The position numbers and the translations under genes are program-made. From NCBI GenBank assembly GCA_036514355.1, contig DATBXI010000063.1, positions 1-24,119 of the forward strand: DNA of 24,119 nt, in the 5' to 3' direction. The notes below the pieces were generated by a model. It saw only the letters and a program-made list of their open reading frames with translations, was not told the DNA's origin and searched no databases. Numbering within the stretch: position 1 is the first letter of the stretch; the number at the start of each line of letters is the position of its first letter. This document shows, in pieces, positions 6,053 through 18,474 of this stretch. The stretch is from Desulfuromonadaceae bacterium (GTDB taxonomy: Bacteria > Desulfobacterota > Desulfuromonadia > Geobacterales > Pseudopelobacteraceae).

Positions 6053-6148
6053 ATAAAAAAAAGGATTTATGTTGAATTGATATGTAACTGACAGTTTAAC
6101 GCATTGCTACGTGTTAATACGTGTTACTTGACAGGACAGGAGGCTTCA

Positions 6149-7474
6149 ATGAAAAAACTGCTTTACCGATTCTTCCCAGCACTATTCCTGCTGGCCCTGC
6201 CCGCCGTTGGTCAGGCGGACACCGCGGTCGATTCATCCACCCTGTTACGTTTTTCCCAAGACAGCCGGCCCGGCTTCTCCACAAAGACGTTTGTGCCAGC
6301 TACCCAGTTTTTGGGCCTCGATGTTGACAAGCTGGGGGATGGCAAGCTTTCCGTGCACCTCTACGGATGGGGACGTGTGGATCTGGCTGACAAGAGCTTC
6401 AACGACAAGCAGACGGGTGGCAGCCTGACCTACGCCTATGCCCAGTACCGCTTGGACCAGGCCAACGGTCAGGTCCGGGTCGGCCGTTTCTTTGTCAATG
6501 AAGGGATAGTCAACGAGCAGGTGGACGGTCTGCATGTGCGCACCGACCTGCCGATGGGGTTCGGCATCTCCACGTTCGGTGGCGCCACGGTCCACACCGC
6601 GCACCAGCTGGGCCTGGGGACCGACGGCAAGGGGGACGGCATCGTGGGTGGCCGTCTGAACTACCGCTACAAAGGGATGCTGGAATTGGGGTTGTCGGGT
6701 GTCTATGAAAGCAACGCGCCCACCGTCAATGATCCCCGAGTGTCCAGTATATTCAGCAGCCACAGGCTCATCGGCGGCGATGTCTGGCTCTCCCCGCACC
6801 GCATGGTGGAGATCATGGGGCACACCAGCTACAACACGGAGACCGACGGTGTTGCCGAACACAGCTACATGCTCAATATCAAGCCAATCGCGCACTTGGT
6901 CCTGACCGGCGAATTCAACGAGCACCGCGAAGCGAACCTGTTCTCCAGTTCGCTCCTCTTCGCCACGTTCGTTCAAAATCTGAACGAACGGTCCCGCTCG
7001 GCAGGGGGCAGCGCTTCCTACGAGTTGAACAAGATGACGGAGGTCGCGGCTGATTACAAACATTACAGCCGTGACATAGGGGAGGCCGACCGCTTCGGTG
7101 GAGATGTGCGCTTCGCGCTGATGGACAAGCAGGTGCGCACCGGCGTCGGTTATCACTATCTGAGGGCAGGTACGAATTTCGCGATAGCCGGCACGGCTTC
7201 CGGCTCGTTCCATGAGGTCCACGGCTACGCCCTGCAGGATACCAAGACCTATATGGCCTCCCTGGACGCCATCGCCTATATCTTTAAAGAAAATATCAAC
7301 AATAAATCAAGCGCCTGGGAGTTTACCGGGTCCCTGGGCTGGCATATTTCCCCGGCCCTGATCCTGTCCGGCGATCTCGGCTACGGGAAGAACCCGCAGT
7401 TTGTTGACGATCTGAAAGGATTGTTACGCCTTACCTACAACATGAATTACACCGGAAAAGGAGGCACGAAATGA
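6149..7474 (+). CDS. Outer-membrane beta-barrel porin of a porin-cytochrome conduit (ExtB-like)
   Basis: AGGAGG RBS and ATG 6149 (track start 6104 is too far upstream). Signal peptide ending GQA-D, many amphipathic aromatic-rich beta strands, and an ATGA overlap with the cytochrome gene. Confidence 0.85.
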   Translation: MKKLLYRFFPALFLLALPAVGQADTAVDSSTLLRFSQDSRPGFSTKTFVPATQFLGLDVDKLGDGKLSVHLYGWGRVDLADKSFNDKQTGGSLTYAYAQYRLDQANGQVRVGRFFVNEGIVNEQVDGLHVRTDLPMGFGISTFGGATVHTAHQLGLGTDGKGDGIVGGRLNYRYKGMLELGLSGVYESNAPTVNDPRVSSIFSSHRLIGGDVWLSPHRMVEIMGHTSYNTETDGVAEHSYMLNIKPIAHLVLTGEFNEHREANLFSSSLLFATFVQNLNERSRSAGGSASYELNKMTEVAADYKHYSRDIGEADRFGGDVRFALMDKQVRTGVGYHYLRAGTNFAIAGTASGSFHEVHGYALQDTKTYMASLDAIAYIFKENINNKSSAWEFTGSLGWHISPALILSGDLGYGKNPQFVDDLKGLLRLTYNMNYTGKGGTK

Positions 7475-7944
7475 AACGCTTCACCCTGATCTTTCCCATC
7501 CTGGCGTTGGCCGGGTTGATTGCCATACTCGGGGCGTGTGCCCAGATGAAGAGCCTCCCGAACCTTCCGGCCTGGCATCCCGAGGAGTTGGCCGCCGGAC
7601 CGGTGAGTTGCGCCGAATGCCACGAGGACCAGCAGAAAGGGACCATGAAGCCCTTTGCCGCCTTCAACCACACTCCGTCGTTTGTGAAGAACCATCGCTT
7701 CTACGCCTCGTCGGACGCCCTGCTCTGCGCCACTTGCCACAAGGAATCGTTCTGCAACGATTGCCACACCAACCAGGTGGAGATCAAGCCCTCCATAAAG
7801 TTCGGCAACCGCCCCGACCGGGAGCTGCCGCACCGTGGGGACTACATAACGATGCACAAGATAGAAGGCAAGCTTGACCCGGCGAGTTGCTATCGCTGCC
7901 ACGGCAGAGCCAACAACGAGCGCTGCATAGTCTGCCACCGATAG
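7471..7944 (+). CDS. Pentaheme c-type cytochrome lipoprotein (ExtC-like)
   Basis: Lipobox LGA-C23 and five CXXCH motifs (CAECH, CATCH, CNDCH, CYRCH, CIVCH). Confidence 0.92.
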   Translation: MKRFTLIFPILALAGLIAILGACAQMKSLPNLPAWHPEELAAGPVSCAECHEDQQKGTMKPFAAFNHTPSFVKNHRFYASSDALLCATCHKESFCNDCHTNQVEIKPSIKFGNRPDRELPHRGDYITMHKIEGKLDPASCYRCHGRANNERCIVCHR

Positions 7945-7954
7945 GAGAGAACCC

Positions 7955-8983
7955 ATGCGCATATCAAATTCATTGATCAATATAGTTGCAATCGCCGTAC
8001 TGTCCGCGGCGCTCTTCGCGTGCAGCAATGGCAACAGCGGCGACGTGGCGCCGGTGGACAACAACGGCAACCATCCTGCCGACTGGGTTCACAAGCATCC
8101 TGCGTATGCCGCACAAACCCAGCTTGCCGCCTGCACCGGCTGCCACGGCGACAATCTGGACGGCGGCAAGGCCAACGTGAGCTGTTTTGGTGCGGGTTAT
8201 CAACGCAGCGGGTTCCAATGCCACACCAACAACCCGAAAAATTATGCGGTTGACGACTGCGGTTCGTGCCACAACGGGCCGCCGAACGGTCCCAACGGCG
8301 CACTCTTTCCCAACAACCAGGGCGCCCACGATTCACACACCAACGTTCCCAGCGTGACCTGCAGCGCATGCCATAACGGACTCGGCTCGGGCACCGCCCA
8401 CCATGGCGACGGCACCCAGGTCGTCAGCCTGGCGCCCGGCTTCCAGGCGGAAACGGTCACCACCGATTTCAACTATCACCCCGTCAACCCGAACGACCAG
8501 ACCAAGGGCGGTACCTGCTCCGGGGTCAGCTGCCACGGCGGCCAGGTGTCCCCCGAATGGTTGACCGGCAAGTGGAGCAACGGGAACGACTTCAACCTTG
8601 CGACGGATTGCTTGAAATGTCACGAAGAAGCCACCGCTGCGCCAGGGCCGGGTAAGCCGACGAAGCCGCAGTACAACAGCTACTACTCCGGAGTTGATGC
8701 GACCTACACTGGGGTGCCGGCGAGCAATACGTTGCATCATTTTCACGTGAGCGGATTAGGGAAAGACTGCACAGAATGCCATAACATCAACAGACTGAGT
8801 GACAGCCAGACGCACTTCAGCGGGGTCACCACCAATACCTTCACGGATCCCGGCGCCACCGTCGGCTCTGCACCGACCAAAATCGGCACCTACGACAAGG
8901 CAACGAAAACCTGTTTCAACACAAACCTCAACAATAGCAACCCAGGTTGCCACATAGCGAACTTCGTTGGGCACTGGCAGTAA
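7955..8983 (+). CDS. Multiheme c-type cytochrome lipoprotein (ExtD position), 5 canonical plus 3 atypical motifs
   Basis: Lipobox LFA-C23. CXXCH x5 (CTGCH, CGSCH, CSACH, CLKCH, CTECH), CX4CH (CSGVSCH), CX11CH x2. Rich in N, T, G and S. Confidence 0.9.
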   Translation: MRISNSLINIVAIAVLSAALFACSNGNSGDVAPVDNNGNHPADWVHKHPAYAAQTQLAACTGCHGDNLDGGKANVSCFGAGYQRSGFQCHTNNPKNYAVDDCGSCHNGPPNGPNGALFPNNQGAHDSHTNVPSVTCSACHNGLGSGTAHHGDGTQVVSLAPGFQAETVTTDFNYHPVNPNDQTKGGTCSGVSCHGGQVSPEWLTGKWSNGNDFNLATDCLKCHEEATAAPGPGKPTKPQYNSYYSGVDATYTGVPASNTLHHFHVSGLGKDCTECHNINRLSDSQTHFSGVTTNTFTDPGATVGSAPTKIGTYDKATKTCFNTNLNNSNPGCHIANFVGHWQ

Positions 8984-9544: not shown

Positions 9545-9863
9545 GGAGAACCTCCTGATTTTTGATTGTATACAAATACCATAAAAGCACTTGAATATCC
9601 AAGGAAAAAGTACGGCCCTCTCCGGGCCTGAACGCTCTCCCATTGCCGTTTTTCAGCTACAGGTAAATGCTTCGCCATGCAATAAAGTGAGTGAAAAAAA
9701 TGATGGTTTTATCGTATGATGGTTTAATTGGTGAGCATGTGGTGAAACTCCAATGGTTAGCTGTGGGTAACTATACTGTACACCCCGTTTCCGGCGTCCA
9801 TAGCGCTGGCATTTCCCTCGTACCTGCAGTTGTATGAAATGTCTGTTTGATGGTCGAGTCACA

Positions 9864-11042
9864 ATGAACACATATTTTCGCAAAATACGCCTGTTGACCA
9901 TCTGCCTCGTGTGCTCAATTCTGGCGCATATCTTTGTTGTGTACGCGCTGAGGCTGTTCGGGACCTACGATTTCAGCGCACCTGTGAGTCAGCCCCCGGG
10001 AGTGACCGTCGAATTGGCCAAATCAACCGATGCCGCTCCCGCAGAAGAGAATGCCGAGAAACAAGAAAACGACGCAGTCCAGGAAGACGACACCAGCGTG
10101 AAACGTCCGCTCCCGGTCCAGGAAGATGACGGCAGCACGGTGTCCGAGTCCGAACCGGAACCGGCGGAGATGCCGATCGTGAGAAGGGATAAGGTTGTCT
10201 CCCCACAGGCCGAAAAAGCAACCGCCGGCGCTCTGCCAGCCGGAGCATCTCTTTCCAAAGCCGCGAGTCAAACTCCCCCTCCATTGAAGGCAGGGGACTT
10301 TCTGGGGGCGCAATTCGAAAAGCTCACCTACCAGATAACCATGCTTGGCATACCCATAGGAAACGCCGAACTTGAAGCGAAGTACGAGAACGGAGAGACT
10401 TCGATCACGCTGAGAGTCAAATCAAATGCCGCAATCTCTAGTGTTTTTCCGGTTGACGATGTTGTCGAAACCCGTCATCTCGACGGCAGGTTCATCATGA
10501 CGAATGTAAAACAGCGAGAGGGCGACTTCAGGAGTGATGAGATGTTTGCCATCAACCCAGGGAAAAAATCGGTGTCCTGGATGGACAACATCAGGGGGCG
10601 CAGCCTGAAAATGCCGCTTCCCACCGACGATGTGCTCGACACTCTATCGGGTATCTATTACCTCAGGAAACGTCAGCTGCAGGTTGGCCGGACGGAAACT
10701 CTCCACATCTACGACAGTGAGACATATGCGGATGTGCCGGTTGAAATCCTGTCCCGGGAGGAAATGCGCCTTCCTAATCTCACGAAGGTCAATGCGCTGG
10801 TTGTCCGCCCGCTCCAAAAGACGGCGGGCATTTTCAGGCGAACAGGGGATGTCCTGATCTGGATGACTGACGATGATCACAAAGTGCCGGTAAAAATCGT
10901 CACCTCCATCGCTCTCGGCAAGGTGACGGCCGATCTTGTGTCAGCCGAATCGAAACCCTTTGATGCAGAGCCCAAGGACACATCCCGGTTGATGCAACAT
11001 GCTGACACCACACCACCACGGAATGGAACCGCCCGCCGGTGA
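9864..11042 (+). CDS. Membrane-anchored DUF3108-domain protein
   Basis: N-terminal TM, acidic/Pro linker, and a C-terminal EKLTYQITMLGIPIG...DTLSGIYYLR...IWMTDDDHKVPVKI domain. Likely start ATG 9864 with a weak RBS. Confidence 0.75.
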   Translation: MNTYFRKIRLLTICLVCSILAHIFVVYALRLFGTYDFSAPVSQPPGVTVELAKSTDAAPAEENAEKQENDAVQEDDTSVKRPLPVQEDDGSTVSESEPEPAEMPIVRRDKVVSPQAEKATAGALPAGASLSKAASQTPPPLKAGDFLGAQFEKLTYQITMLGIPIGNAELEAKYENGETSITLRVKSNAAISSVFPVDDVVETRHLDGRFIMTNVKQREGDFRSDEMFAINPGKKSVSWMDNIRGRSLKMPLPTDDVLDTLSGIYYLRKRQLQVGRTETLHIYDSETYADVPVEILSREEMRLPNLTKVNALVVRPLQKTAGIFRRTGDVLIWMTDDDHKVPVKIVTSIALGKVTADLVSAESKPFDAEPKDTSRLMQHADTTPPRNGTARR

Positions 11043-11075
11043 ATGGCACAAGCCCCATCTCCTGAAGGATTCCCC

Positions 11076-11615
11076 ATGCTTCACAATAATTCACTACGCA
11101 GAATACTGGTGGTGCTCATCGCCCTCATTGTCTCTGGGTGTGATACAAAACAGGACTTGCAAACAGGGGATTCCGCCCCAGAATTTTCAGTATCGGACAT
11201 GCGTGGCGAACGGATTCGTTTGAGCCAGTTCAAGGGCAAAATCGTTGTCCTGTATTTCTGGCGGAATTCGTGCTGTAGTGATGGCTTGAAACGTATCGAA
11301 CCGCTGTATCGCGCAAACAGACACAATAATTTCGAGATAGTGGCGGTAAATGGCGGCGACACCAAAGAGGCTGTTGCAGCGTATGCGAAGAGCAACGGAT
11401 TGACGTTTGCTATGGTGCCGGATGAACAGTTGATGCTGGTGAATCAGTATCACGTCATCGGGTTTCCGACGATTTTCATACTGGACAAGCATGGTCTTAT
11501 CCGCGAAAAAATCATGGGCGCGGTACAAACCGAGCAACTGGAGAAATTACTCCAACGCCAGTTCGGCATCCAGAAAGCGGCTGAGGCTGCATATGAGAAG
11601 ACCCATGTCCATTAG
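11076..11615 (+). CDS. TlpA/ResA-like thioredoxin-fold lipoprotein with vicinal CC instead of CXXC
   Basis: Lipobox VSG-C. APEFSVSDMRGERIRLSQFKGKIVVLYFW, cis-Pro loop GFPT, FILDKHGLIR. The active-site region reads FWRNSCCSDG. ATG 11076 follows GAAGGA. Confidence 0.85.
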   Translation: MLHNNSLRRILVVLIALIVSGCDTKQDLQTGDSAPEFSVSDMRGERIRLSQFKGKIVVLYFWRNSCCSDGLKRIEPLYRANRHNNFEIVAVNGGDTKEAVAAYAKSNGLTFAMVPDEQLMLVNQYHVIGFPTIFILDKHGLIREKIMGAVQTEQLEKLLQRQFGIQKAAEAAYEKTHVH

Positions 11616-11697
11616 ATCCTTTATGTGGCCGGCACGTGCGGATGTGGGTCTGAAACGCTGCTGCGATGGACGAATACACGTACAAGGGGATGAGTAA

Positions 11698-12075
11698 ATG
11701 CTGCTGCAAGCTGTAATCTGGATGAATCTCGCGCTTGTTTTCTACACGTGGGCCGTGTTCAGCGGGCGAAAACAGGGATTGCACCGGAAGCATCTGATTA
11801 TTTTCGGCATCGGCCTGGCGTGCGATTATCTTGGTACCCACCAGATGAACCTGTTCGCCCATACCTACGGCAAGGCGCCCGAATGGCACAACATCACCGG
11901 CATCGCTTCGTTGGGTGGGATGGCTTTTCACTTTATGCTGGCGCTCGTCGCTTCCCTGGCGAACAAAGCGGAAGCGGTCAACCGCATTTTTCACCGCGTC
12001 AGCCTGAGCATCTATACCTGCTGGCTGATTGCCTTTTTCAGCGGGGCCATCTCCGGCATGATGCGCATGCGGTAA
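11698..12075 (+). CDS. HsmA-like (TIGR03987-type) 4-TM membrane protein
   Basis: LALVFYTWAV, HLIIFGIGLACDYLGT, HNITGIASL, FHF.LA and FHRVSLSIY.CW match the HsmA pattern, including the conserved His residues. Confidence 0.7.
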   Translation: MLLQAVIWMNLALVFYTWAVFSGRKQGLHRKHLIIFGIGLACDYLGTHQMNLFAHTYGKAPEWHNITGIASLGGMAFHFMLALVASLANKAEAVNRIFHRVSLSIYTCWLIAFFSGAISGMMRMR

Positions 12076-12098
12076 GCCGATAACCTGTCCCACAACGC

Positions 12099-12133
12099 AC
12101 ATCGGCCCGGCGATATCTTCGCCGGGCCGATGT
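12099..12133. terminator. 15-bp hairpin between convergent hsmA-like and radical SAM genes
   Basis: ACATCGGCCCGGCGA, TATCT loop, TCGCCGGGCCGATGT, followed by T-rich sequence on the + strand. Confidence 0.8.
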
Positions 12134-12156: not shown

Positions 12157-13632
12157 TCAGTAGCTCTTGAACACGTCCGTGGTGAAGTGCATCGGCATCT
12201 CGGAGCCGGAGAAATCGAAATGCTCGCCATGATCCTTCATCATCAGTCTGAATGCGCTGAGCATGTAGCGCCGCTTGAATCCATCCTCCAGCGCAACGAT
12301 CTCCTGCACCTTCTCGCTATAGAATTTCATGTAGCAGGTCCCCAACGCCTGGGTGATCTCATCCATGGACATTTCGTGGGGTTCCACAATGGGTGTTACC
12401 AGGTTGTATTTCGAGTAATCCCACACCCTGATGCGGTCCTTCATCTCCTTGAAGAGCGGCGTGAAGGGCATGGGAGTCACCACCGGGAAGACGGCGATGT
12501 CCGGGTTCAGGTATTTCGCCGACTCGATGGTGCTGTCTATGGAGTCCCACGTTTCGTTGGGGAAGCCGATCATGAACGACGCCTCGGTGATGATACCTGC
12601 ATCACGGCACAGGTCCAGGGCCTGTTTGTTCTGTTCGAAACTGGTTCCTTTGTTGAGGCTGTTCAGGGTGTCCTTATCGGCGCTCTCTGCGCCGATATAG
12701 ATGTGGATGATGCCGGCATCCCGGTATTTATGCAGGATATCCGCATCCCTGATGATATCCTCGACCCGCGTCTCGATAAGGAGGCGGACGCCGAAGTTCC
12801 GCTCGATCAGAAGATCCAGGAACAGTTCCCAGCGATCCCGGTGTTTTGTCGGATAGGCATCGATAAGGGTGAAATAGCTGATGTTGTAGGTTTCGATCAG
12901 GTGAGCCATTTCTTCGATGACGTTTTCCGGTTTTCGGCAGCGCCAGTCTTCGCGCCAGAACATCCGCTGGCTGCAAAACGCGCATCCCATGTCGCAGCCG
13001 CGGGAGGTGAGGATGGAGGCCATCCTGCCGTTCGGCTCGACAAGATACCGGTAGTCCTCCCAGTCCAGCAGGTGCCAGGCCGGTTTCAATGAATCCAGCT
13101 CCACGATGTGCGCCTGGTTTTCGTTGCTGATGACCTCCGTCCCCTCACGGTAGGCGATCCCTTTGACGCTTTTCCCCGTCCCCTCCGGGATCGCGGTGAG
13201 CAGTTGCTTCAGGGTATGCTCCGGCTCTCCCTTGATGATGAAATCCACGTTGCTTTTCTCATCTCCCGGGGTTTCCAGAATCTCCTGGTACATGAACGTC
13301 GGGTGCGGTCCGCCCAGCAGCGTCACGATGGCGGGATTCACCTGTTTGGCAACGTCGAGGATCTTGAGGGCATCGGGCACCGTCGCGGTGCTGATGGCCC
13401 CGGTAACGGGGAGATAGTCGAGCGTCATGACGAAGTCGGGCTGGTACCGCTCTATTTCGGCGCGGATATCCTTAAACGAGAGCTTCTTGTTCATGGCATC
13501 GAAGATCCGTGCCTCGTGGCCGGCTTCAAGCGCCGCACCGGCCAGGTACGCCAGATGCAGCGGAGGCCAGGTTCCGACGACCTGCACGCCCCAGCAATGG
13601 TATGGCGCTGTTACGAAAAGAATCTTGCTCAT
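12157..13632 (-). CDS. B12-binding radical SAM protein, BchE-like (paralog 1)
   Basis: N-terminal cobalamin-binding-type domain (WPPLHLAYLAG, LGGPHPTFMY). CxxxCxxC RGCDMGCAFC at 12973-12996. TRVEDIIRDADILHKYRDAG and DYSKYNLVTPI match the BchE family. Confidence 0.9.
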   Translation of the reverse strand: MSKILFVTAPYHCWGVQVVGTWPPLHLAYLAGAALEAGHEARIFDAMNKKLSFKDIRAEIERYQPDFVMTLDYLPVTGAISTATVPDALKILDVAKQVNPAIVTLLGGPHPTFMYQEILETPGDEKSNVDFIIKGEPEHTLKQLLTAIPEGTGKSVKGIAYREGTEVISNENQAHIVELDSLKPAWHLLDWEDYRYLVEPNGRMASILTSRGCDMGCAFCSQRMFWREDWRCRKPENVIEEMAHLIETYNISYFTLIDAYPTKHRDRWELFLDLLIERNFGVRLLIETRVEDIIRDADILHKYRDAGIIHIYIGAESADKDTLNSLNKGTSFEQNKQALDLCRDAGIITEASFMIGFPNETWDSIDSTIESAKYLNPDIAVFPVVTPMPFTPLFKEMKDRIRVWDYSKYNLVTPIVEPHEMSMDEITQALGTCYMKFYSEKVQEIVALEDGFKRRYMLSAFRLMMKDHGEHFDFSGSEMPMHFTTDVFKSY

Positions 13633-13669
13633 TACCTTCTCCCCTGCGTTATGAGATTTTACAGAATAT

Positions 13670-13695
13670 GAGGACCCCGGTGCAGCAGGGTCCTC
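13670..13695 (-). promoter_or_regulatory. Hairpin in the 5' region of radical SAM paralog 1
   Basis: GAGGACCC-N10-GGGTCCTC, 38 nt upstream of ATG 13632. No long U-tract follows on the minus strand. Confidence 0.45.
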
Positions 13696-13796
13696 GAATT
13701 TCTTTGCCGTACTTTAGCAGGGAAACCGGCAAATGGTCATGTAAAGATTTAGTAAAGAACGCAATGGTTGGAAGATGACAGCGGGGTAAGGGCAGC

Positions 13797-14888
13797 TTAT
13801 CCCATCACTCGATCGTCACCCTTACAGGGGAGGTGGAACCAGACCCGTGTCCCGCTCTCGTCACTCTCCGCGCCCACTGTTCCGCCATGCGCCTCGATCA
13901 GTTCCTTGACGATCGCCAGCCCGATGCCCGCTCCACCCGCATCCCGTGAGCGCGACCGGTCGGCCCGGAAGAACCGCTCGAACAGGTACGGGATATCCTT
14001 ATCCGCGATCAGGGCGCCGCTGTTGCTGAAGATGGTTCTTATGCCGTCCGGGGTGCTCTGCACCGCAATCGTAACGCTTCCACCCCGGGGAGTGTATTTC
14101 CAGGCATTGTCGGCCAGGTTGCGAATCGCCTGCAGCAACTTGTCGCGATCCGCCGTCACCAGGTCGCTTCCCGGATCGATCTGCCACTGCACATCGATCC
14201 CCTTTTCCTGGAAATTCGGCTGATACAGGGTCATGATCTGATCGAGCAGTTCGTGGAGGGAGAGTTCCTCGCAATCGAGAAAGGCCTTGGCGGCATCGGC
14301 CCGGGCCAGTTGCTGGAGGTCCTCGACCAGGTGGACCAGGCGCAGGACCTCCTGCTCAAGCATCTGGAAGGTTTCGCGGCTCGGCGGTATGACGGAGTCG
14401 CTCAACCCCTCCAGGTACCCGCGCAGATTGGTCAGCGGGGTGCGCAACTCGTGGGCGATGTCGGCCACCATGTTCTTGCGCAGCCGTTCGACCGCTTCCA
14501 GGTTGTCGGCCATGTGGTTGAAGGCATCGGCAAGCTGGCCTCCTTCATAGCGGGATGCCGCGTTGACCCGCTCGGAGTAATTCCCGTCGGCAACCTTTTT
14601 GGTTATGGCGGTGATCTGCAGCAGGGGGTGCAGGACCCATTTGGTCAGGAGGTACGTGAAGAGCAGGGTAAAGGTCAACGCAGCGAAAACGCCCCAGAAC
14701 AGGTGGTGGTGGATGGCCTCAAGGAACCGGGCATGGGCCTCAATCGGCGAGACGTGGAAACGTCCCGTCAGCTCCTTGTAATACTCTACCGCTTGCCGAT
14801 CCACGGCCTGCCAGACCACCAGTGAAAAGATCGCAAAGATCGGGACTATGTGGCCGATCAATAACTTCCAGAGTAGCCGTTGTCGCAT
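13797..14888 (-). CDS. Sensor histidine kinase, HAMP-HisKA-HATPase (BaeS-like)
   Basis: Two TMs, HAMP, H-box VADIAHELRTPLTNL, N-box NLADNAWKY, G-box GAGIGLAI. ATG 14888 with AGGGGG RBS. Confidence 0.92.
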   Translation of the reverse strand: MRQRLLWKLLIGHIVPIFAIFSLVVWQAVDRQAVEYYKELTGRFHVSPIEAHARFLEAIHHHLFWGVFAALTFTLLFTYLLTKWVLHPLLQITAITKKVADGNYSERVNAASRYEGGQLADAFNHMADNLEAVERLRKNMVADIAHELRTPLTNLRGYLEGLSDSVIPPSRETFQMLEQEVLRLVHLVEDLQQLARADAAKAFLDCEELSLHELLDQIMTLYQPNFQEKGIDVQWQIDPGSDLVTADRDKLLQAIRNLADNAWKYTPRGGSVTIAVQSTPDGIRTIFSNSGALIADKDIPYLFERFFRADRSRSRDAGGAGIGLAIVKELIEAHGGTVGAESDESGTRVWFHLPCKGDDRVMG

Positions 14889-14898
14889 CGTATTCCCC

Positions 14899-15609
14899 CT
14901 AGATGCCGCCGTCGCTGAAGGAATAACCATGGCCGCGCACGGTCAGGATGAAGCAGGGGCGGGAAGGATCGTCCTCGATTTTTTGGCGGAGTTTTCCGAT
15001 ATGAACGTCGATGACCCGGTCAATGACCGCCTCGCTGTTCTGATAGCACTGGCTGAGGAGTTCTTCGCGGGAAAAGGCCCTCCCCGGGGAACTCATCAGG
15101 GTGTGCAACAGCTTGTATTCCCACGACGTCAGGGGAACGAGTCTCCCATCGCGGGTTACCCTGTGCTTCTCGGAGTCCAGCTCCAGTCCGGCAAACGCAA
15201 GGACGGGCGCAGCGGATGAAACCGGCCTGCTGCGGCGCAGGATCGCTTTGACCCGCTCCACCAGCTCGCGGGGGCTGAACGGTTTGACCACGTAATCATC
15301 GGCGCCCATCGCCAGCCCCGCTACCCGGTCAACCTCTTCTTCCCGCGCCGTAAGGATCAGGACCGGAATGTTGGAACGCTCCCGCAGAGCCCGGCAAATC
15401 GCCCAGCCGTCCAGATTGGGCAGCATGATGTCGAGGATGACGAAGACAGGATCACAGGTGCCGGCGGTTTCGATCGCCTGTCCCCCATCGTGGACCATCA
15501 CCGTCGAAAAACCTTCCCGCTCCAGGTACGTTGCAACCAGTGCGGCCGTGTTGCGGTCGTCTTCTACTATCAGCACCGTGCCCTGTTTGGCTGCTATGGA
15601 TTGGGACAT
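14899..15609 (-). CDS. OmpR-family response regulator
   Basis: LIVEDD, ILDIMLP, GADDYVVKPFSPREL and winged-helix RVIDVHIGKLRQKIE. ATG 15609 has a GGAG RBS; the alternative start is 15624. Confidence 0.92.
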   Translation of the reverse strand: MSQSIAAKQGTVLIVEDDRNTAALVATYLEREGFSTVMVHDGGQAIETAGTCDPVFVILDIMLPNLDGWAICRALRERSNIPVLILTAREEEVDRVAGLAMGADDYVVKPFSPRELVERVKAILRRSRPVSSAAPVLAFAGLELDSEKHRVTRDGRLVPLTSWEYKLLHTLMSSPGRAFSREELLSQCYQNSEAVIDRVIDVHIGKLRQKIEDDPSRPCFILTVRGHGYSFSDGGI

Positions 15610-15624
15610 GACATTCTCCGACAT

Positions 15625-15655
15625 GGGGGATGAGGACCATGCATCCTCATCTCCC
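15625..15655. repeat. GATGAG/CTCATC-type hairpin between rhodanese stop and response regulator start
   Basis: GATGAGGA (15629-15636) and TCCTCATC (15644-15651) pair perfectly; the stem extends to 12 bp (15625-15655) with one G-T pair. Confidence 0.6.
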
Positions 15656-15964
15656 GGGCTTCTCCAGGGGAAAGCCTGAACGACGCCAGGCGGCCATATG
15701 GCCGGTAAGGAGTGTAACGTTGCGATACCCGAACAGGCCGAGTAACGCCCTGGCCATCACGGCACGGGGACCAAGTTCGCACAGGGCAACCATCTCGGTA
15801 CGCTTGTCCGCAGGAAGCGCCGCCAGCAGCAGCATGATTTTCCAGATGGGCGCGTGTATCGCCCCGGGTATATGGCCGGCCCTGAATTCAAAACCGGTGC
15901 GGACGTCCACCACGGCGGGGGATTGGCCCCGTGCCATTTTTTCTGCAAGCTCCCTGGGGTGCAT
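15647..15964 (-). CDS. Single-domain rhodanese-like sulfurtransferase
   Basis: VVDVRTGFEFRAGHIPGA, active-site loop CELGPRA, LTGHMAAW. ATG 15964 is best spaced from GAGGA. Confidence 0.85.
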   Translation of the reverse strand: MHPRELAEKMARGQSPAVVDVRTGFEFRAGHIPGAIHAPIWKIMLLLAALPADKRTEMVALCELGPRAVMARALLGLFGYRNVTLLTGHMAAWRRSGFPLEKPGR

Positions 15965-16022
15965 GATCATTCCTCTTGCAAAGCCTCGTTGAGAGGTGAA
16001 TCCTGGAAAGGACTGCCGGCTT

Positions 16023-17570
16023 TCAGCCTTTGTCCCTCCTCATTTCTTGCATCTTTGCCGGTATCTTGCCGAGCATGCCGATTCCCAGTTTTTTCATGAC
16101 AAAGGGGCTTCCCATGAACAGCTTGGTGATGCGCATCAGATAGTCACGCCTGAAGGTCGCTTTCATGGTCATGAATTCTATGATCTTGCCCATGTAAAAG
16201 CGGCGGTAGCAGTCCGCCTGTGCCACTTCGACCTGAAGCATGCTCATGCCGTGGGGTTCGAGGACGGGATCGACCATGTTGTATTTCCCGTAATCGTTGA
16301 TCCGGATATGGGGCTTTAGCTCTGCGTACTCGTCAGAATAGGGCCACGGGGTGTAGATCAGGAAGTTGGCGATATCCGGGCCGTACTGCTGGACCAGCTG
16401 CATGGTCCTCTTGATGCTCGCAGGGGTCTCGTCGGGAAACCCCAGCATGAACGATGCCTCGGATACGATCTCCTGCTCGTGGAGGAGCTCGAAGACCTGT
16501 TTGACGTCTTCTATGACGATCCCTTTTCTCATCGCGTCGAGGAACGCCTGGTCTGCGGCCTCGACCCCGATGGAAATATAGATGATCCCTGCCTTGCGAT
16601 ACTTCCCGAGGATGTCCTTGTCCCGGAGTATGTCCGACCCCCTGGTTTCCATCAAAAGATGAACAGGTATCTCCCTGGCGATGATTGCGTCGAGTAGGGC
16701 CTCCCAATGCTCCCGGTTTCTGGTGGGGTATTCATCGGTAATCAGGAAGGCATTGACGCCGTACCGGGAATACAGGTGCTCCAGTTCGTCGGCCACCTTC
16801 CGGGGGTCACGGGCGCGCCAGGACTTCTCCCAGAACCGTTGCTGGGAGCAGAATACGCAGTCATGGTCGCAGCCGCGGGAGGTGCTGATGGCTCCCAGGC
16901 GGGAACCGGGGATCGCCAGGCAGGTGTAGGTGCTCCACTCGAGGAGATCCCATGCCGCCGGCAGATCGTCGATGCATTCCAGCAGGGGACGCCGGGCGGT
17001 CGTCATTACCGCTCCATCGCGGTTGCGGAAGGCAAGCCCCGGAACCGCGGCAGGATCGCCGCCGGCTTCCAGGACCTCCAACAGGTGCCGGAGGGTGGCC
17101 TCCCCCTCACCGACAACGATGTAGTCGATGGCGGATGACTGCCCCAAGACCTCTTCATACATGAAGGTGGGGTGCACCCCCCCCAGAATGGTGACGGTGT
17201 CCGGCCTGACGCTCTTGGCAAGCTCCAGGGTTTTGGCGGCGTCGTTGATGGTGGCGGTCATGGCGGTGGTGGCGACATAATCTACCCGGGATTCACGCAG
17301 GCGGCGCTCAATGTCCGGATATCCATGCCCCATGGCCATGGCGTCGTAGATCTCGGCGCCCACGTTCGCCTGGCGGGCGGCGCCGGCAAGATAGACCATG
17401 CCGAGCGGTATCCAGCGGCCGGCAACTTCATCGATGCCGCTATGATAGGGGGGAGTCACAAAGAGGATTCTGCTGGGGGGGGCTGTCGTTCCTGTCCGGG
17501 TTTTTCCTGAAGGGGTACTAGTTGTCATCGGTATCCAAATATTACCGTATAATTTTACACACTTTACCAT
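16023..17570 (-). CDS. B12-binding radical SAM protein, BchE-like (paralog 2)
   Basis: PPYHSGIDEVAGRWIPLG, LGGVHPTFMYEEVL, DYIVVGEGE, CxxxCxxC RGCDHDCVFC at 16848-16871, YTPWPYS. Start is 17570 (AGGGG RBS) or 17528. Confidence 0.9.
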   Translation of the reverse strand: MVKCVKLYGNIWIPMTTSTPSGKTRTGTTAPPSRILFVTPPYHSGIDEVAGRWIPLGMVYLAGAARQANVGAEIYDAMAMGHGYPDIERRLRESRVDYVATTAMTATINDAAKTLELAKSVRPDTVTILGGVHPTFMYEEVLGQSSAIDYIVVGEGEATLRHLLEVLEAGGDPAAVPGLAFRNRDGAVMTTARRPLLECIDDLPAAWDLLEWSTYTCLAIPGSRLGAISTSRGCDHDCVFCSQQRFWEKSWRARDPRKVADELEHLYSRYGVNAFLITDEYPTRNREHWEALLDAIIAREIPVHLLMETRGSDILRDKDILGKYRKAGIIYISIGVEAADQAFLDAMRKGIVIEDVKQVFELLHEQEIVSEASFMLGFPDETPASIKRTMQLVQQYGPDIANFLIYTPWPYSDEYAELKPHIRINDYGKYNMVDPVLEPHGMSMLQVEVAQADCYRRFYMGKIIEFMTMKATFRRDYLMRITKLFMGSPFVMKKLGIGMLGKIPAKMQEMRRDKG

Positions 17571-17730
17571 GTCGCCCCTAAATGTTCCATAAAAATGTCG
17601 GCCGGTTGCTTGTGGGTGGCGTGCTATGAAATTACTGGGAACTCCCGTGGTTTGATGATAAACTACCCCCGTTTTTTTGCTTCACAGCAGGTGCAGGAGG
17701 GGAAATCGCGCAGCGGCAAGGCGGAACGAC

Positions 17731-18474
17731 GTGATAAACGGACAGAAGATTGTTGTGGTTTTCCCGGCCTACAATGCCGAGAAGACGCTGGTCAACACCT
17801 GGCAGGAGATCCCGCCCGAAGTGGATGAGATGGTGTTGGTCGATGATTGCAGTAGCGATAAGACGGCGGAGTTGGCCCGACAGCTGGGCATTACCACGGT
17901 GGTGCATGAAGCCAATACCGGCTATGGGGGCAATCAGAAGACCTGCTACCGGACCGCACTGGAATTGGGTGCCGACATCGTGGTGATGGTTCATCCGGAT
18001 TATCAGTACACTCCCCGCCTGGTTACGGCCATGGCTGCCATGATTGCGTACGGTGAGTTCGACGCCGTGCTCGCTTCCCGCATTCTCGGGACCGGTGCCC
18101 TTAAAGGCGGCATGCCCCTCTACAAGTACATTGCCAACCGTTTTCTGACCTTTGCGGAAAACATCCTGCTCGGCCAGAAGTTCTCCGAATATCATACCGG
18201 CTACCGCGCCTTTTCCCGCCATGTGCTGGAGCGGCTGCCGCTGGACGCCAATTCTGATGACTTCGTTTTTGACAACCAGATGATCGCCCAGTTGGTCTGG
18301 TTCGATTTCAGGGTCGGCGAGCTGTCCTGCCCCACCAAGTATTTCAGGGAAGCGTCCTCCATCAATTTCCGCCGCAGCGTCATCTACGGTTTCGGTGTGC
18401 TCGGCACGGCAATCACATTCCGGCTCAACAAATGGGGATTGGCGTCAACGCCCCACTACCGGCGGAACGGATGA
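17731..18474 (+). CDS. Glycosyltransferase family 2 (DPM1-like)
   Basis: [38 protein letters not shown] start at 17731. Confidence 0.88.

What the first reader, a model, noticed from the sequence alone, without database searches (positions are those of the whole stretch)
12157..17570. Two BchE-like B12 radical SAM paralogs in an apparent non-phototroph
Seen: two co-oriented proteins of about 500 aa share motifs along their length (ILFVTxPYH, WxPLxxxYLAGAA, GGxHPTFMY, TSRGCxxxCxFCSQ, ETRxxDIxRDxDILxKYRxAG, DYxKYNxVxP). Both keep CxxxCxxC but are clearly diverged, so the duplication is not recent. Established: these motifs match the anaerobic Mg-protoporphyrin IX monomethyl ester cyclase BchE family more closely than generic class B methylases, yet no bch, puf or psc gene is in the window. 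Inference: sequential or heterodimeric enzymes acting on a non-chlorophyll substrate, plausibly a heme or other tetrapyrrole.
Basis: partly seen in the sequence, partly recalled or inferred. Interest (0 to 1): 0.75.

Follow-up and report, generated by a model that had tools for sequence, protein, structure and literature searches.

The report
BchE-like enzyme pair in haem-handling neighbourhood
Two diverged copies of a vitamin-B12 radical enzyme related to, but distinct from, the chlorophyll ring-closing enzyme BchE sit in a regulated operon beside a haem-binding membrane protein in a non-photosynthetic Geobacter-type soil bacterium. Their wider family recurs next to cytochrome-c assembly genes in several phyla, which points to an undescribed step in haem or cytochrome handling.

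Summary
Two co-oriented genes on the minus strand (12157-13632, 16023-17570) encode 43%-identical B12-binding radical SAM proteins carrying all the quoted motifs.

They are not BchE:
- They score 402-403 bits on TIGR02026 (cut-off 481; a true BchE scores 770).
- They form a well-supported sister clade to context-verified BchE.
- The 88%-complete Geobacteraceae MAG shows no BchH, BchM or reaction-centre gene.

The result is a five-gene operon that converges on an HsmA-family (haem-sequestering) membrane protein gene.

Across Geobacterales the family has at least three old paralog groups (A, B, C).
- It occurs in exactly the same 20 of 31 sampled genera as HsmA, and is adjacent to it in 27 genomes.
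- Group C (GSU2888-type) and distant members in Thermincola, Coriobacteriia and Motiliproteus lie in operons with ResB/ResC cytochrome-c synthetase paralogs, NHL proteins, LuxE-like ligases and giant multihaem cytochromes.

A haem-type substrate is therefore the best-supported reading (about 0.55). The chemistry is unknown, and an obligate A-B heterodimer is unlikely.

I found no published function. This scan had already noted the ResBC-linked cassette on other DNA (e1-1222969, e1-3153016). The HsmA-linked, two-component-regulated pair is a new variant of it.

The parts
16023..17570 (-). rSAM-A: class B (B12-binding) radical SAM protein, BchE-like, paralog group A (alternative start at 17528)
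   Evidence: TIGR02026 403.1 bits, below the 481.35 cut-off; falls in clade A in the trees; start region read.
15647..15970 (-). Single-domain rhodanese, 107 aa, no signal peptide evident
   Evidence: PF00581 at 57.9 bits. Found in the same position in 24 of 58 related loci.
14899..15624 (-). OmpR-family response regulator
   Evidence: PF00072 plus PF00486. Found in 34 of 58 related loci.
13797..14888 (-). HAMP/HisKA/HATPase sensor kinase with two transmembrane segments and a short outer loop (about 35 aa) carrying invariant His66 and His74; the true start is probably M15 of the ORF that opens at 14930
   Evidence: alignment of five orthologs.
12157..13632 (-). rSAM-B: class B radical SAM protein, BchE-like, paralog group B, with an 8-residue insertion in the B12 domain relative to A and C
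   Evidence: 402.2 bits; alignment; AF2 model with pLDDT 91.5; Foldseek matches to AprD4, TsrM, MgmA, CysS, TokK and OxsB.
13670..13695 (-). 10-bp hairpin in the 164-nt gap between the kinase gene and rSAM-B, without a good T-run; a possible processing or attenuation site
   Evidence: pattern match only.
12099..12133 (.). 15-bp, GC-rich hairpin between the convergent hsmA-like gene and rSAM-B; probably a bidirectional terminator
11698..12075 (+). HsmA-family small membrane protein, 125 aa, about four transmembrane segments, conserved His residues
   Evidence: TIGR03987 at 91.7 bits, above the 78.2 cut-off. 87-94% identical in most near-relative loci and 65-81% in more distant ones. Adjacent to a family rSAM in 27 genomes.
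9834..11042 (+). DUF3108 protein; a recurrent neighbour of the cassette
   Evidence: PF11306. Found in 16 of 58 related loci.
11043..11615 (+). ResA/TlpA-like thioredoxin-fold lipoprotein with vicinal CC in place of CxxC; seen in this position only in this genome and L068
   Evidence: (NF002854 at 101.9 bits, below cut-off).
17677..18474 (+). Divergently transcribed GT2 glycosyltransferase; local synteny within Geobacterales only
   Evidence: Found in 12 of 58 loci, and not in loci from other phyla.

Best explanation
The two genes encode paralogous cobalamin-dependent (class B) radical SAM enzymes. They belong to a distinct, uncharacterised sister family of the anaerobic Mg-protoporphyrin cyclase BchE. 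In this window they bracket a rhodanese and an OmpR/HAMP two-component pair in a single minus-strand operon, which converges on an HsmA-family haem-binding membrane protein gene.

Shown: family placement, operon anatomy, conserved linkage to HsmA, and the wider family's linkage to ResB/ResC (System II cytochrome-c synthetase) paralogs, NHL proteins, LuxE-like adenylating enzymes and giant multihaem cytochromes.

Inferred:
- Each enzyme uses a 5'-deoxyadenosyl radical plus cobalamin to functionalise a C-H bond of a haem-type tetrapyrrole (haem b or a late precursor) at the cytoplasmic face of the membrane. The chemistry would be either C-methylation, as in BchQ/BchR, or BchE-like oxidation of a propionate side chain.
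- The small His-rich membrane protein holds or hands on the porphyrin.
- The embedded two-component system switches the operon on in response to an envelope signal.
- A and B act on different positions or in successive steps, not as an obligate heterodimer.

Whether the product feeds dedicated cytochrome maturation or haem detoxification and turnover is open.
For: - Sister to BchE but outside it. TIGR02026 gives 402/403 bits against a cut-off of 481, while a true BchE representative scores 769.5. Clade (A, B, C) has 99/97 support as sister to four BchE proteins verified by puh/bchJ/ppsR context. In the 67-row tree the family (35 rows, SH-aLRT 99) is separate from BchE (7 rows, 100).
- Shared residues. 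56 alignment columns are invariant and shared with BchE, many of them aromatic or Arg/Asp; only 8 columns are family-specific switches. This is consistent with a similar large planar substrate (inference).
- HsmA link. P0127 passes TIGR03987. C. difficile HsmA sequesters haem (PMC12541388). In 121 Geobacterales genomes the rSAM family and HsmA occur in the same 20 genera and are absent from the same 11. By genome: both 56, rSAM only 12, HsmA only 5, neither 48. They lie less than 600 bp apart in 27 genomes. HsmA is present in 31 of 58 B-type loci.
- ResB/ResC link. Group C sits in the order resB-resC-(LuxE-like)-(CopD-like small membrane protein)-rSAM. By gene order this is GSU2891-2888 / Gmet_0592-0597, next to a 27-haem cytochrome (PMC2700814 Table S5).
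- The same arrangement occurs elsewhere: Thermincola ferriacetica (2108-aa cytochrome-ResB-ResC-rSAM::LuxE fusion-NHL-cytochrome-ResB-ResC-sirohaem/hemA genes), two metagenome contigs, and Coriobacteriia and Eubacteriales MAGs. In Motiliproteus the order is CopD-like-LuxE-rSAM-NnrU-NHL-902-aa multihaem cytochrome.
- ResC-family matches average 5.3 per genome in rSAM-positive Geobacterales and 2.9 in rSAM-negative ones, and the trend also holds within genera g3 and g21 (hand count).
- Cofactor supply. CobQ is present in the genome.
- Fold. The AF2 model has pLDDT 91.5 and matches solved class B radical SAM enzymes at TM 0.64-0.71.
Against: - There is no biochemical or genetic evidence for any member, and no paper was found.
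- This window has no resB/resC or LuxE gene next to the pair, and no LuxE was found in the genome.
- Neighbouring GT2 and LPS-type genes, a LuxE-family partner (classically a fatty-acid activator) and an SRPBCC fusion (P0132) fit a lipid-like substrate equally well.
- One family member (P0138) has no cytochrome context.
- HsmA is not adjacent in about half of the genomes that have both genes.
- Related genomes are not independent, so the co-occurrence counts overstate the signal.
- No modified haem has, to my knowledge, been reported in the Geobacter cytochrome structures solved so far.
- The predicted A+HsmA complex gave no answer.
Confidence: 0.55

Rival explanations
1. The enzymes modify a hydrophobic non-tetrapyrrole molecule of the envelope, such as an isoprenoid quinone, a hopanoid-like lipid, an acyl chain or a glycolipid. 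The link to cytochrome genes would then reflect co-regulation of the membrane with electron-transfer machinery.
For: LuxE-family acyl-activating enzymes are adjacent or fused. There is an SRPBCC (lipid or quinone-binding fold) fusion in P0132. GT2, GT4 and Wzm/Wzt genes are divergently adjacent in the window and in many Geobacterales loci. Many class B radical SAM enzymes act on lipids (HpnP, HpnR, the ladderane model; established knowledge).
Against: Scores on the lipid and hopanoid models are far below their cut-offs: HpnR 135-146 against 650, HpnJ 113-129 against 578, the ladderane model 117-124 against 360. The nearest characterised relative acts on a tetrapyrrole. The GT2 linkage is confined to closely related Geobacterales synteny and is absent from the loci of other phyla, whereas cytochrome, ResBC and NHL links recur across phyla.
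Confidence: 0.2
2. The enzymes act on haem, but for anaerobic haem breakdown, iron salvage or detoxification rather than for tailoring. HsmA would act as a haem sink and the two-component system as a haem-stress sensor.
For: HsmA's only characterised role is haem sequestration and tolerance. The operon carries its own envelope-type sensor kinase with invariant His residues in the outer loop and a rhodanese, which is common in stress operons. Anaerobic haem degradation is known to need radical SAM chemistry (ChuW/HutW; established knowledge, and a different radical SAM class).
Against: Group C and distant members sit inside operons with the cytochrome-c synthetase and structural cytochrome genes. 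That fits biogenesis better than catabolism. No haem uptake, haem oxygenase-like or anaerobilin reductase gene was seen in the loci examined.
Confidence: 0.12
3. The substrate is a polypeptide: a cytochrome apoprotein, an NHL protein or a small peptide that is modified before export, as with B12 radical SAM enzymes of RiPP pathways.
For: Several class B enzymes modify peptides or proteins, including MgmA, the seventh-ranked structural hit (9ccb), Mmp10 and PoyC (the last two from established knowledge). ApyD and rSAM_ocin models give weak hits. Cytochrome and NHL genes recur next to family members.
Against: No precursor-peptide gene, RiPP recognition element or SPASM partner lies in the operon. 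Similarity to the peptide-modifying models is much lower than to BchE. In the window the nearest cytochrome genes are more than 3 kb away on the other strand.
Confidence: 0.08
4. They are genuine BchE cyclases of a cryptic or lost phototrophy pathway.
For: BchE is the best-scoring model, and JGI annotation pipelines name relatives 'anaerobic Mg-protoporphyrin IX monomethyl ester cyclase'.
Against: The scores are below the equivalog cut-off. The proteins form a separate clade from verified BchE. No BchH, no BchM above cut-off and no reaction-centre gene was found in the genome. The family is widespread in Geobacterales and in Thermincola, which are known as non-phototrophs (established knowledge).
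Confidence: 0.01

Closest known systems
BchE, anaerobic Mg-protoporphyrin IX monomethyl ester oxidative cyclase (TIGR02026)
   Same: Same two-domain architecture (N-terminal B12-binding domain plus radical SAM core with CxxxCxxC). 35-39% identity. 56 invariant columns are shared. It is the sister clade in both trees.
   Different: The proteins score 402-403 bits against a cut-off of 481, while true BchE scores 770. They lack the roughly 60-90-residue C-terminal extension of the verified BchE proteins (548-562 aa against 470-505 aa). There are eight family-specific residue switches. The context is never a photosynthesis gene cluster. The hosts are non-phototrophs.
GSU2888 / Gmet_0597 'radical SAM iron-sulfur oxidoreductase' in cytochrome-c biogenesis gene cluster #3 of Geobacter (PMC2700814, Table S5)
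   Same: Same family (paralog group C, about 40-44% identical to B and A; assigned by matching gene order). Uncharacterised.
   Different: Group C lies in a resB-resC-LuxE-small membrane protein operon beside giant cytochromes. The window's A/B pair instead carries rhodanese and a two-component system and pairs with HsmA. No group C copy was found in this incomplete genome.
BchQ / BchR, the C8(2) and C12(1) methyltransferases of bacteriochlorophyll c/d/e biosynthesis (from established knowledge; not tested here)
   Same: BchE-related class B radical SAM paralogs that act in pairs on different positions of one tetrapyrrole. This is a precedent for 'two paralogs, two sites'.
   Different: They are chlorosome-pigment enzymes of green sulfur bacteria. 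I could not obtain verified sequences, so their position relative to this family is untested.
HsmA of Clostridioides difficile (TIGR03987 family)
   Same: The neighbour P0127 passes the family cut-off at 91.7 bits against 78.2. It is a small membrane protein with about four transmembrane segments and conserved His residues.
   Different: In C. difficile the gene is controlled by the MarR-type haem sensor HsmR and has no radical SAM partner. Here it is linked to BchE-like enzymes and, in this window, to an OmpR/HAMP system.
Dedicated System II cytochrome-c synthetase isoenzymes, e.g. Wolinella NrfI and CcsA1 for CX2CK and CX15CH sites (from established knowledge)
   Same: They are extra ResC/CcsA paralogs encoded next to the special cytochromes they serve. 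The rSAM family co-varies with extra ResC copies.
   Different: Those systems have no radical SAM or B12 component.

Membership tests
BchE (TIGR02026 equivalog) | Whole-protein score at or above the curated cut-off of 481.35 bits | tested here: not met
   402.2 bits (B) and 403.1 bits (A). A true BchE representative, P0141, scores 769.5.
BchE (TIGR02026 equivalog) | Falls inside the clade of BchE proteins encoded in photosynthesis gene clusters | tested here: not met
   It is a sister clade, not nested: 99/97 support, and SH-aLRT 99 against 100 in the larger tree. The references were verified by puhABCE, hemN, bchJ, ppsR and chlG neighbours.
BchE (TIGR02026 equivalog) | Host encodes the substrate-forming steps (Mg-chelatase BchH, methyltransferase BchM) and reaction centres | tested here: not met
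   No BchH, no BchM above cut-off (best 50 bits against 158.9) and no Photo_RC. The genome is only 87.7% complete.
BchE (TIGR02026 equivalog) | Cyclase activity on Mg-protoporphyrin IX monomethyl ester | not testable with these tools
   Needs complementation of a bchE mutant or an enzyme assay.
Class B (cobalamin-dependent) radical SAM enzymes | N-terminal B12-binding domain plus a radical SAM core with CxxxCxxC | tested here: met
   PF02310 at 70.6/93.1 bits and PF04055 at 90.1/88.7 bits. C213, C217 and C220 are conserved.
Class B (cobalamin-dependent) radical SAM enzymes | Fold like solved members of the class | tested here: met
   AF2 model with pLDDT 91.5. Foldseek matches AprD4, TsrM, MgmA, CysS, TokK and OxsB with E between 1e-25 and 1e-17 and TM 0.64-0.71.
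Class B (cobalamin-dependent) radical SAM enzymes | Binds cobalamin and a [4Fe-4S] cluster | not testable with these tools
   The genome encodes CobQ. CobS was not found.
Hopanoid and lipid B12 radical SAM enzymes (HpnR, HpnJ, rSAM_ladder_B12) | Score at or above each model's cut-off | tested here: not met
   HpnR 145.6/134.9 against 650; HpnJ 128.9/113.3 against 577.6; ladderane model 116.9/123.5 against 360.
Uncharacterised 'cytochrome/haem-neighbourhood BchE-like' family (GSU2888-type; no curated model) | Monophyly with members encoded in resB-resC operons | tested here: met
   A and B group with group C and with P0134, P0136 and P0137 (all adjacent to ResBC) in a clade with SH-aLRT 99.
Uncharacterised 'cytochrome/haem-neighbourhood BchE-like' family (GSU2888-type; no curated model) | Adjacent haem-handling partner (ResB/ResC, or an HsmA, CopD-like or NnrU small membrane protein) | tested here: met
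   An HsmA-family gene lies 82 bp from the stop of B, convergent. There is no resB/resC in the window.
HsmA family (TIGR03987), for the neighbour at 11698-12075 | Score at or above the 78.2-bit cut-off | tested here: met
   91.7 bits over positions 1-120 of 120.
HsmA family (TIGR03987), for the neighbour at 11698-12075 | Binds haem | not testable with these tools
   Known only for the C. difficile protein (PMC12541388).

The most novel reading that the evidence does not exclude
BchE-like B12 radical SAM enzymes make a chemically modified haem, for example C-methylated or carrying an oxidised or cyclised propionate. Dedicated ResB/ResC synthetase paralogs then attach this haem to particular (giant) multihaem cytochromes of metal-respiring bacteria. 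The A/B pair here would be a regulated two-step version that works through an HsmA-type membrane haem carrier. This would be a new branch of haem biosynthesis, and the chlorophyll cyclase would be a relative of a haem-tailoring enzyme family.
Probability: 0.25. Interest if true: 0.9.

Novelty: new variant of a known kind. Interest (0 to 1): 0.68.

Why it matters
Extracellular electron transfer in Geobacter, Thermincola and their relatives depends on dozens of multihaem cytochromes. Their maturation is assumed to need only the ResB/ResC machinery and ordinary haem b.

A conserved B12 radical enzyme family wired into these loci in at least three phyla implies a missing chemical step: haem tailoring, haem quality control, or a new cofactor. 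It also offers an evolutionary link between haem handling and the anaerobic chlorophyll cyclase.

The hypothesis can be tested directly: mutants of GSU2888 in G. sulfurreducens, or of the A/B pair in cultured Geomonas, Geomobilimonas or Geobacter sp. AOG1, combined with haem mass spectrometry.

It also corrects a widespread mis-annotation: many relatives are labelled 'anaerobic Mg-protoporphyrin IX monomethyl ester cyclase'.

Tried and rejected
- Complex prediction on rSAM-A plus HsmA gave 'no answer' (score 0.00). This is neither support nor evidence against binding.
- The A+B heterodimer was not folded, because only one job is allowed. Distribution data were used instead.
- The Rfam scan of the window found no cobalamin riboswitch or any other family.
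- No RNA sequencing run holds the locus; only soil-metagenome DNA runs do. Expression could not be checked.
- Seven literature searches (BchE+Geobacter; Mg-protoporphyrin cyclase+G. sulfurreducens; BchE-like+non-phototrophic; ResB+radical SAM; GSU2888/2889/2890/Gmet_0597; Thermincola+radical SAM; radical SAM+multihaem+CcsA+NHL) found no functional study. The only mention is the gene-cluster table of PMC2700814.
- Contexts of the unknown sister clade ii (P0173, P0152) were uninformative.
- P0138, a relative of group C, has no cytochrome context.
- PDB sequence search found no solved BchE, so a comparison of the substrate pocket with BchE was not possible. Model coordinates are also not exposed to scripts.
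- CobS was not found in the genome, but CobQ was.
- I rejected the idea that the long ORFs 11512-12102(-) and 17632-18222(-) are genes. They are low-complexity antisense frames over hsmA and the GT2 gene.

Full report
**1. What is there**

The window is contig C63 of a 2.79-Mb MAG in 517 contigs, 87.7% complete. Close homologs come from Geobacter, Geobacteraceae and Desulfuromonadaceae records, and soil metagenome runs hold the DNA.

On the minus strand lies a compact run of five genes:

| Gene | Coordinates | Notes |
|---|---|---|
| rSAM-A | 16023-17570 | alternative start at 17528 |
| rhodanese | 15647-15970 | single domain |
| OmpR-type response regulator | 14899-15624 | |
| HAMP/HisKA sensor kinase | 13797-14888 | |
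| rSAM-B | 12157-13632 | |

These assignments rest.

- A 15-bp GC-rich hairpin at 12099-12133 separates rSAM-B from a convergent 125-aa membrane-protein gene at 11698-12075.
- A and B are 43% identical.
The correction is that three genes lie between the paralogs.

**2. BchE-like, but not BchE**

- TIGR02026 is by far the best model for both proteins, at 402-403 bits. HpnR, the next model, gives 135-146 bits. The equivalog cut-off is 481, and a genuine BchE representative scores 769.5.
- I took reference BchE proteins from plasmid records. Their identity is verified by neighbours: puhABCE-bchE-hemN-bchJ in Thiodictyon, ppsR-bchE-bchJ-chlG in Roseinatronobacter, and bchE-bchJ in Skermanella. They are 35-39% identical to A and B.
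- In a maximum-likelihood tree the Geobacterales sequences form three clades: A (97/95), B (100/100) and C (100/100). Together they form one clade (99/97) that is sister to BchE.
- In a 67-row tree that adds cluster representatives from a profile search of 1.8 billion proteins, the family (35 rows, SH-aLRT 99), BchE (7 rows, 100) and a third unknown clade form a trichotomy.
- The genome has no BchH, no BchM above cut-off and no reaction-centre protein.
- An AF2 model of B (pLDDT 91.5) matches solved class B radical SAM enzymes: AprD4, TsrM, MgmA, CysS, TokK and OxsB. No BchE structure exists for comparison.
- 56 alignment columns are invariant and shared with BchE. Eight are family-specific switches.

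**3. Distribution of the paralogs**

In 121 sampled Geobacterales genomes, 68 carry at least one family member.

- B orthologs (72-89% identity) occur in 29 genomes, and always together with an A-type copy.
- A-type copies occur without B, for example in G018 and G057.
- Group C (about 40% identical to B and 44% to A) is single-copy at another locus in many genomes.
- The one same-genus genome sampled has two C copies and no A or B.
- The gene order varies:
  - A-rhodanese-RR-HK-B is the commonest order; among the 58 B-type loci, HK occurs in 36, RR in 34 and rhodanese in 24.
  - A-rhodanese-B also occurs.
  - A-B directly adjacent also occurs.
  - A and B lie on separate contigs in two genomes.
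- B-type proteins at 62-69% identity occur in Coriobacteriia, Eubacteriales, Sulfuritalea and Motiliproteus records. In three of those genomes the B-type protein is the only family member.

An obligate A-B heterodimer is therefore unlikely. Successive or parallel action remains possible.

**4. The haem-handling context**

(a) *HsmA.*
- The convergent 125-aa gene passes the HsmA-family model, at 91.7 bits against a cut-off of 78.2.
- The gene is 87-94% identical in most near-relative loci and 65-81% in more distant ones. It sits immediately upstream of A or downstream of B in 31 of 58 B-type loci.
- Comparing coordinates, HsmA lies less than 600 bp from a family rSAM (A, B or C) in 27 genomes.
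- The two genes are present in exactly the same 20, and absent from the same 11, of the 31 genera. By genome: both 56, rSAM only 12, HsmA only 5, neither 48. Related genomes are not independent, so this is descriptive only.

(b) *ResB/ResC in Geobacterales.*
- Group C lies in the order resB-resC-(LuxE-like)-(CopD-like 116-123-aa membrane protein)-rSAM.
- This order matches Gmet_0592-0597 and, with the acyl-protein synthetase gene rearranged, GSU2893-2888. These are listed as 'cytochrome c biogenesis gene cluster #3', next to a 27-haem cytochrome (PMC2700814 Table S5).

(c) *Outside the order.*
- Thermincola ferriacetica (LGTE01; identity of the record confirmed by PMC4582578) has 2108-aa cytochrome-ResB-ResC-rSAM::LuxE fusion-NHL-cytochrome-ResB-ResC-sirohaem/hemA genes.
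- Two metagenome contigs have ResB-ResC-(110 aa)-rSAM.
- Another contig has NHL-CopD-like-rSAM.
- Coriobacteriia and Eubacteriales loci have ResC and ResB within about 2 kb.
- Motiliproteus has CopD-like-LuxE-rSAM-NnrU-NHL-902-aa multihaem cytochrome.

(d) *ResC copy number.* ResC-family matches average 5.3 per genome in rSAM-positive Geobacterales and 2.9 in rSAM-negative ones. The same trend is seen inside genera g3 and g21 (hand count).

(e) *In the window itself.* Nearby genes include a ResA-like thioredoxin-fold lipoprotein, DUF3108 and a porin plus multihaem cytochrome cluster.

**5. Interpretation**

- The nearest characterised enzyme acts on a tetrapyrrole, and the recurrent partners handle haem or are haem proteins.
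- The best-supported reading is therefore that A and B functionalise a haem-type tetrapyrrole on the cytoplasmic side, with the small His-rich membrane protein as carrier.
- The LuxE-like adenylating partner, which is fused to the enzyme in Thermincola, could activate a propionate carboxylate. In bacteriochlorophyll synthesis BchM esterifies the propionate on which BchE then acts. This analogy is inference only, and no LuxE gene accompanies the pair in this window or was found in this genome.
- The embedded kinase has a short outer loop with invariant His66 and His74. The signal it senses is unknown.
- The rivals are a lipid, quinone or other envelope substrate (LuxE, SRPBCC fusion, GT2 neighbours), haem catabolism or detoxification, a polypeptide substrate, and true BchE (effectively excluded).

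**6. Novelty**

- I found no functional study. Many relatives are auto-annotated as the chlorophyll cyclase.
- This scan has already reported the ResBC-linked BchE-like cassette on other DNA (e1-1222969, e1-3153016). I reached the same association independently here, before reading those notes.
- What this window adds is a second, regulated architecture: two old paralogs with rhodanese and a two-component system, paired with HsmA. It also adds the genus-level co-distribution with HsmA.

**7. Limits**

- All functional statements rest on homology and gene neighbourhood.
- The genomes are related to one another, and the counts of adjacency and of ResC copies were made by hand from tool tables.
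- The MAG is incomplete.
- BchQ/BchR and BchE from other phototroph phyla were not available as verified sequences.
- The complex prediction gave no answer.

Noticed in passing
L030:4029-5444 (+) (genome G094): The A-type copy in this complete genome reads CDQDNGFGSQ where the others have CxxxCxxC. Two of the three radical SAM cysteines are lost while the rest of the protein stays conserved. It may be an inactive partner or a sequencing error.
   Followed up: no
window 11043-11615 (+): A ResA/TlpA-like thioredoxin-fold lipoprotein has vicinal Cys-Cys (FWRNSCCSDG) in place of CxxC. Its best model is ResA at 101.9 bits, below the cut-off. It sits between DUF3108 and hsmA only in this genome and L068.
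   Followed up: partly
P0137 (L048:7001-9928), P0132, P0136 (L049:7001-10228): Natural fusions of the BchE-like enzyme exist: with a LuxE-like adenylating domain (Thermincola, 975 aa), with an SRPBCC/polyketide-cyclase-like domain (657 aa), and with about 580 residues of unknown fold (1075 aa).
   Followed up: partly
P0143 and L014:2998-5043: The cyanobacterial 'BchE' (680-681 aa; Pseudanabaena plasmid) carries a C-terminal response-regulator receiver domain fused to the cyclase-like enzyme.
   Followed up: no
window 13797-14888 (-): The short extracytoplasmic loop of the sensor kinase has two invariant histidines (His66, His74) and a Tyr-Tyr pair across five orthologs. This could be a metal or haem sensing site.
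   Followed up: no
L096-L099, L101-L103: B-type enzymes at 62-69% identity occur in Coriobacteriia, Eubacteriales, Sulfuritalea and Motiliproteus, nested as sister to the Geobacterales B clade. This suggests horizontal transfer of the module between phyla.
   Followed up: partly
L103:7533-8207: In Motiliproteus an NnrU-family membrane protein follows the rSAM gene. To my knowledge the plant Z-ISO haem protein belongs to this family. That makes a third kind of small His-rich membrane protein (with HsmA and CopD-like) found beside family members.
   Followed up: no
window 6104-8983 (+): A 456-aa ORF with no Pfam match is followed by two multihaem cytochrome genes (c7/MtrC-like hits) about 3 kb from the cassette. 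Similar porin and cytochrome genes lie next to the cassette in L056 and L076.
   Followed up: no
G017 (same genus) versus G000: The nearest sampled relative has two group C copies next to resB-resC and no A/B pair. This genome has A/B and no detected C copy. Paralog content turns over quickly within a genus, although the MAG is incomplete.
   Followed up: partly
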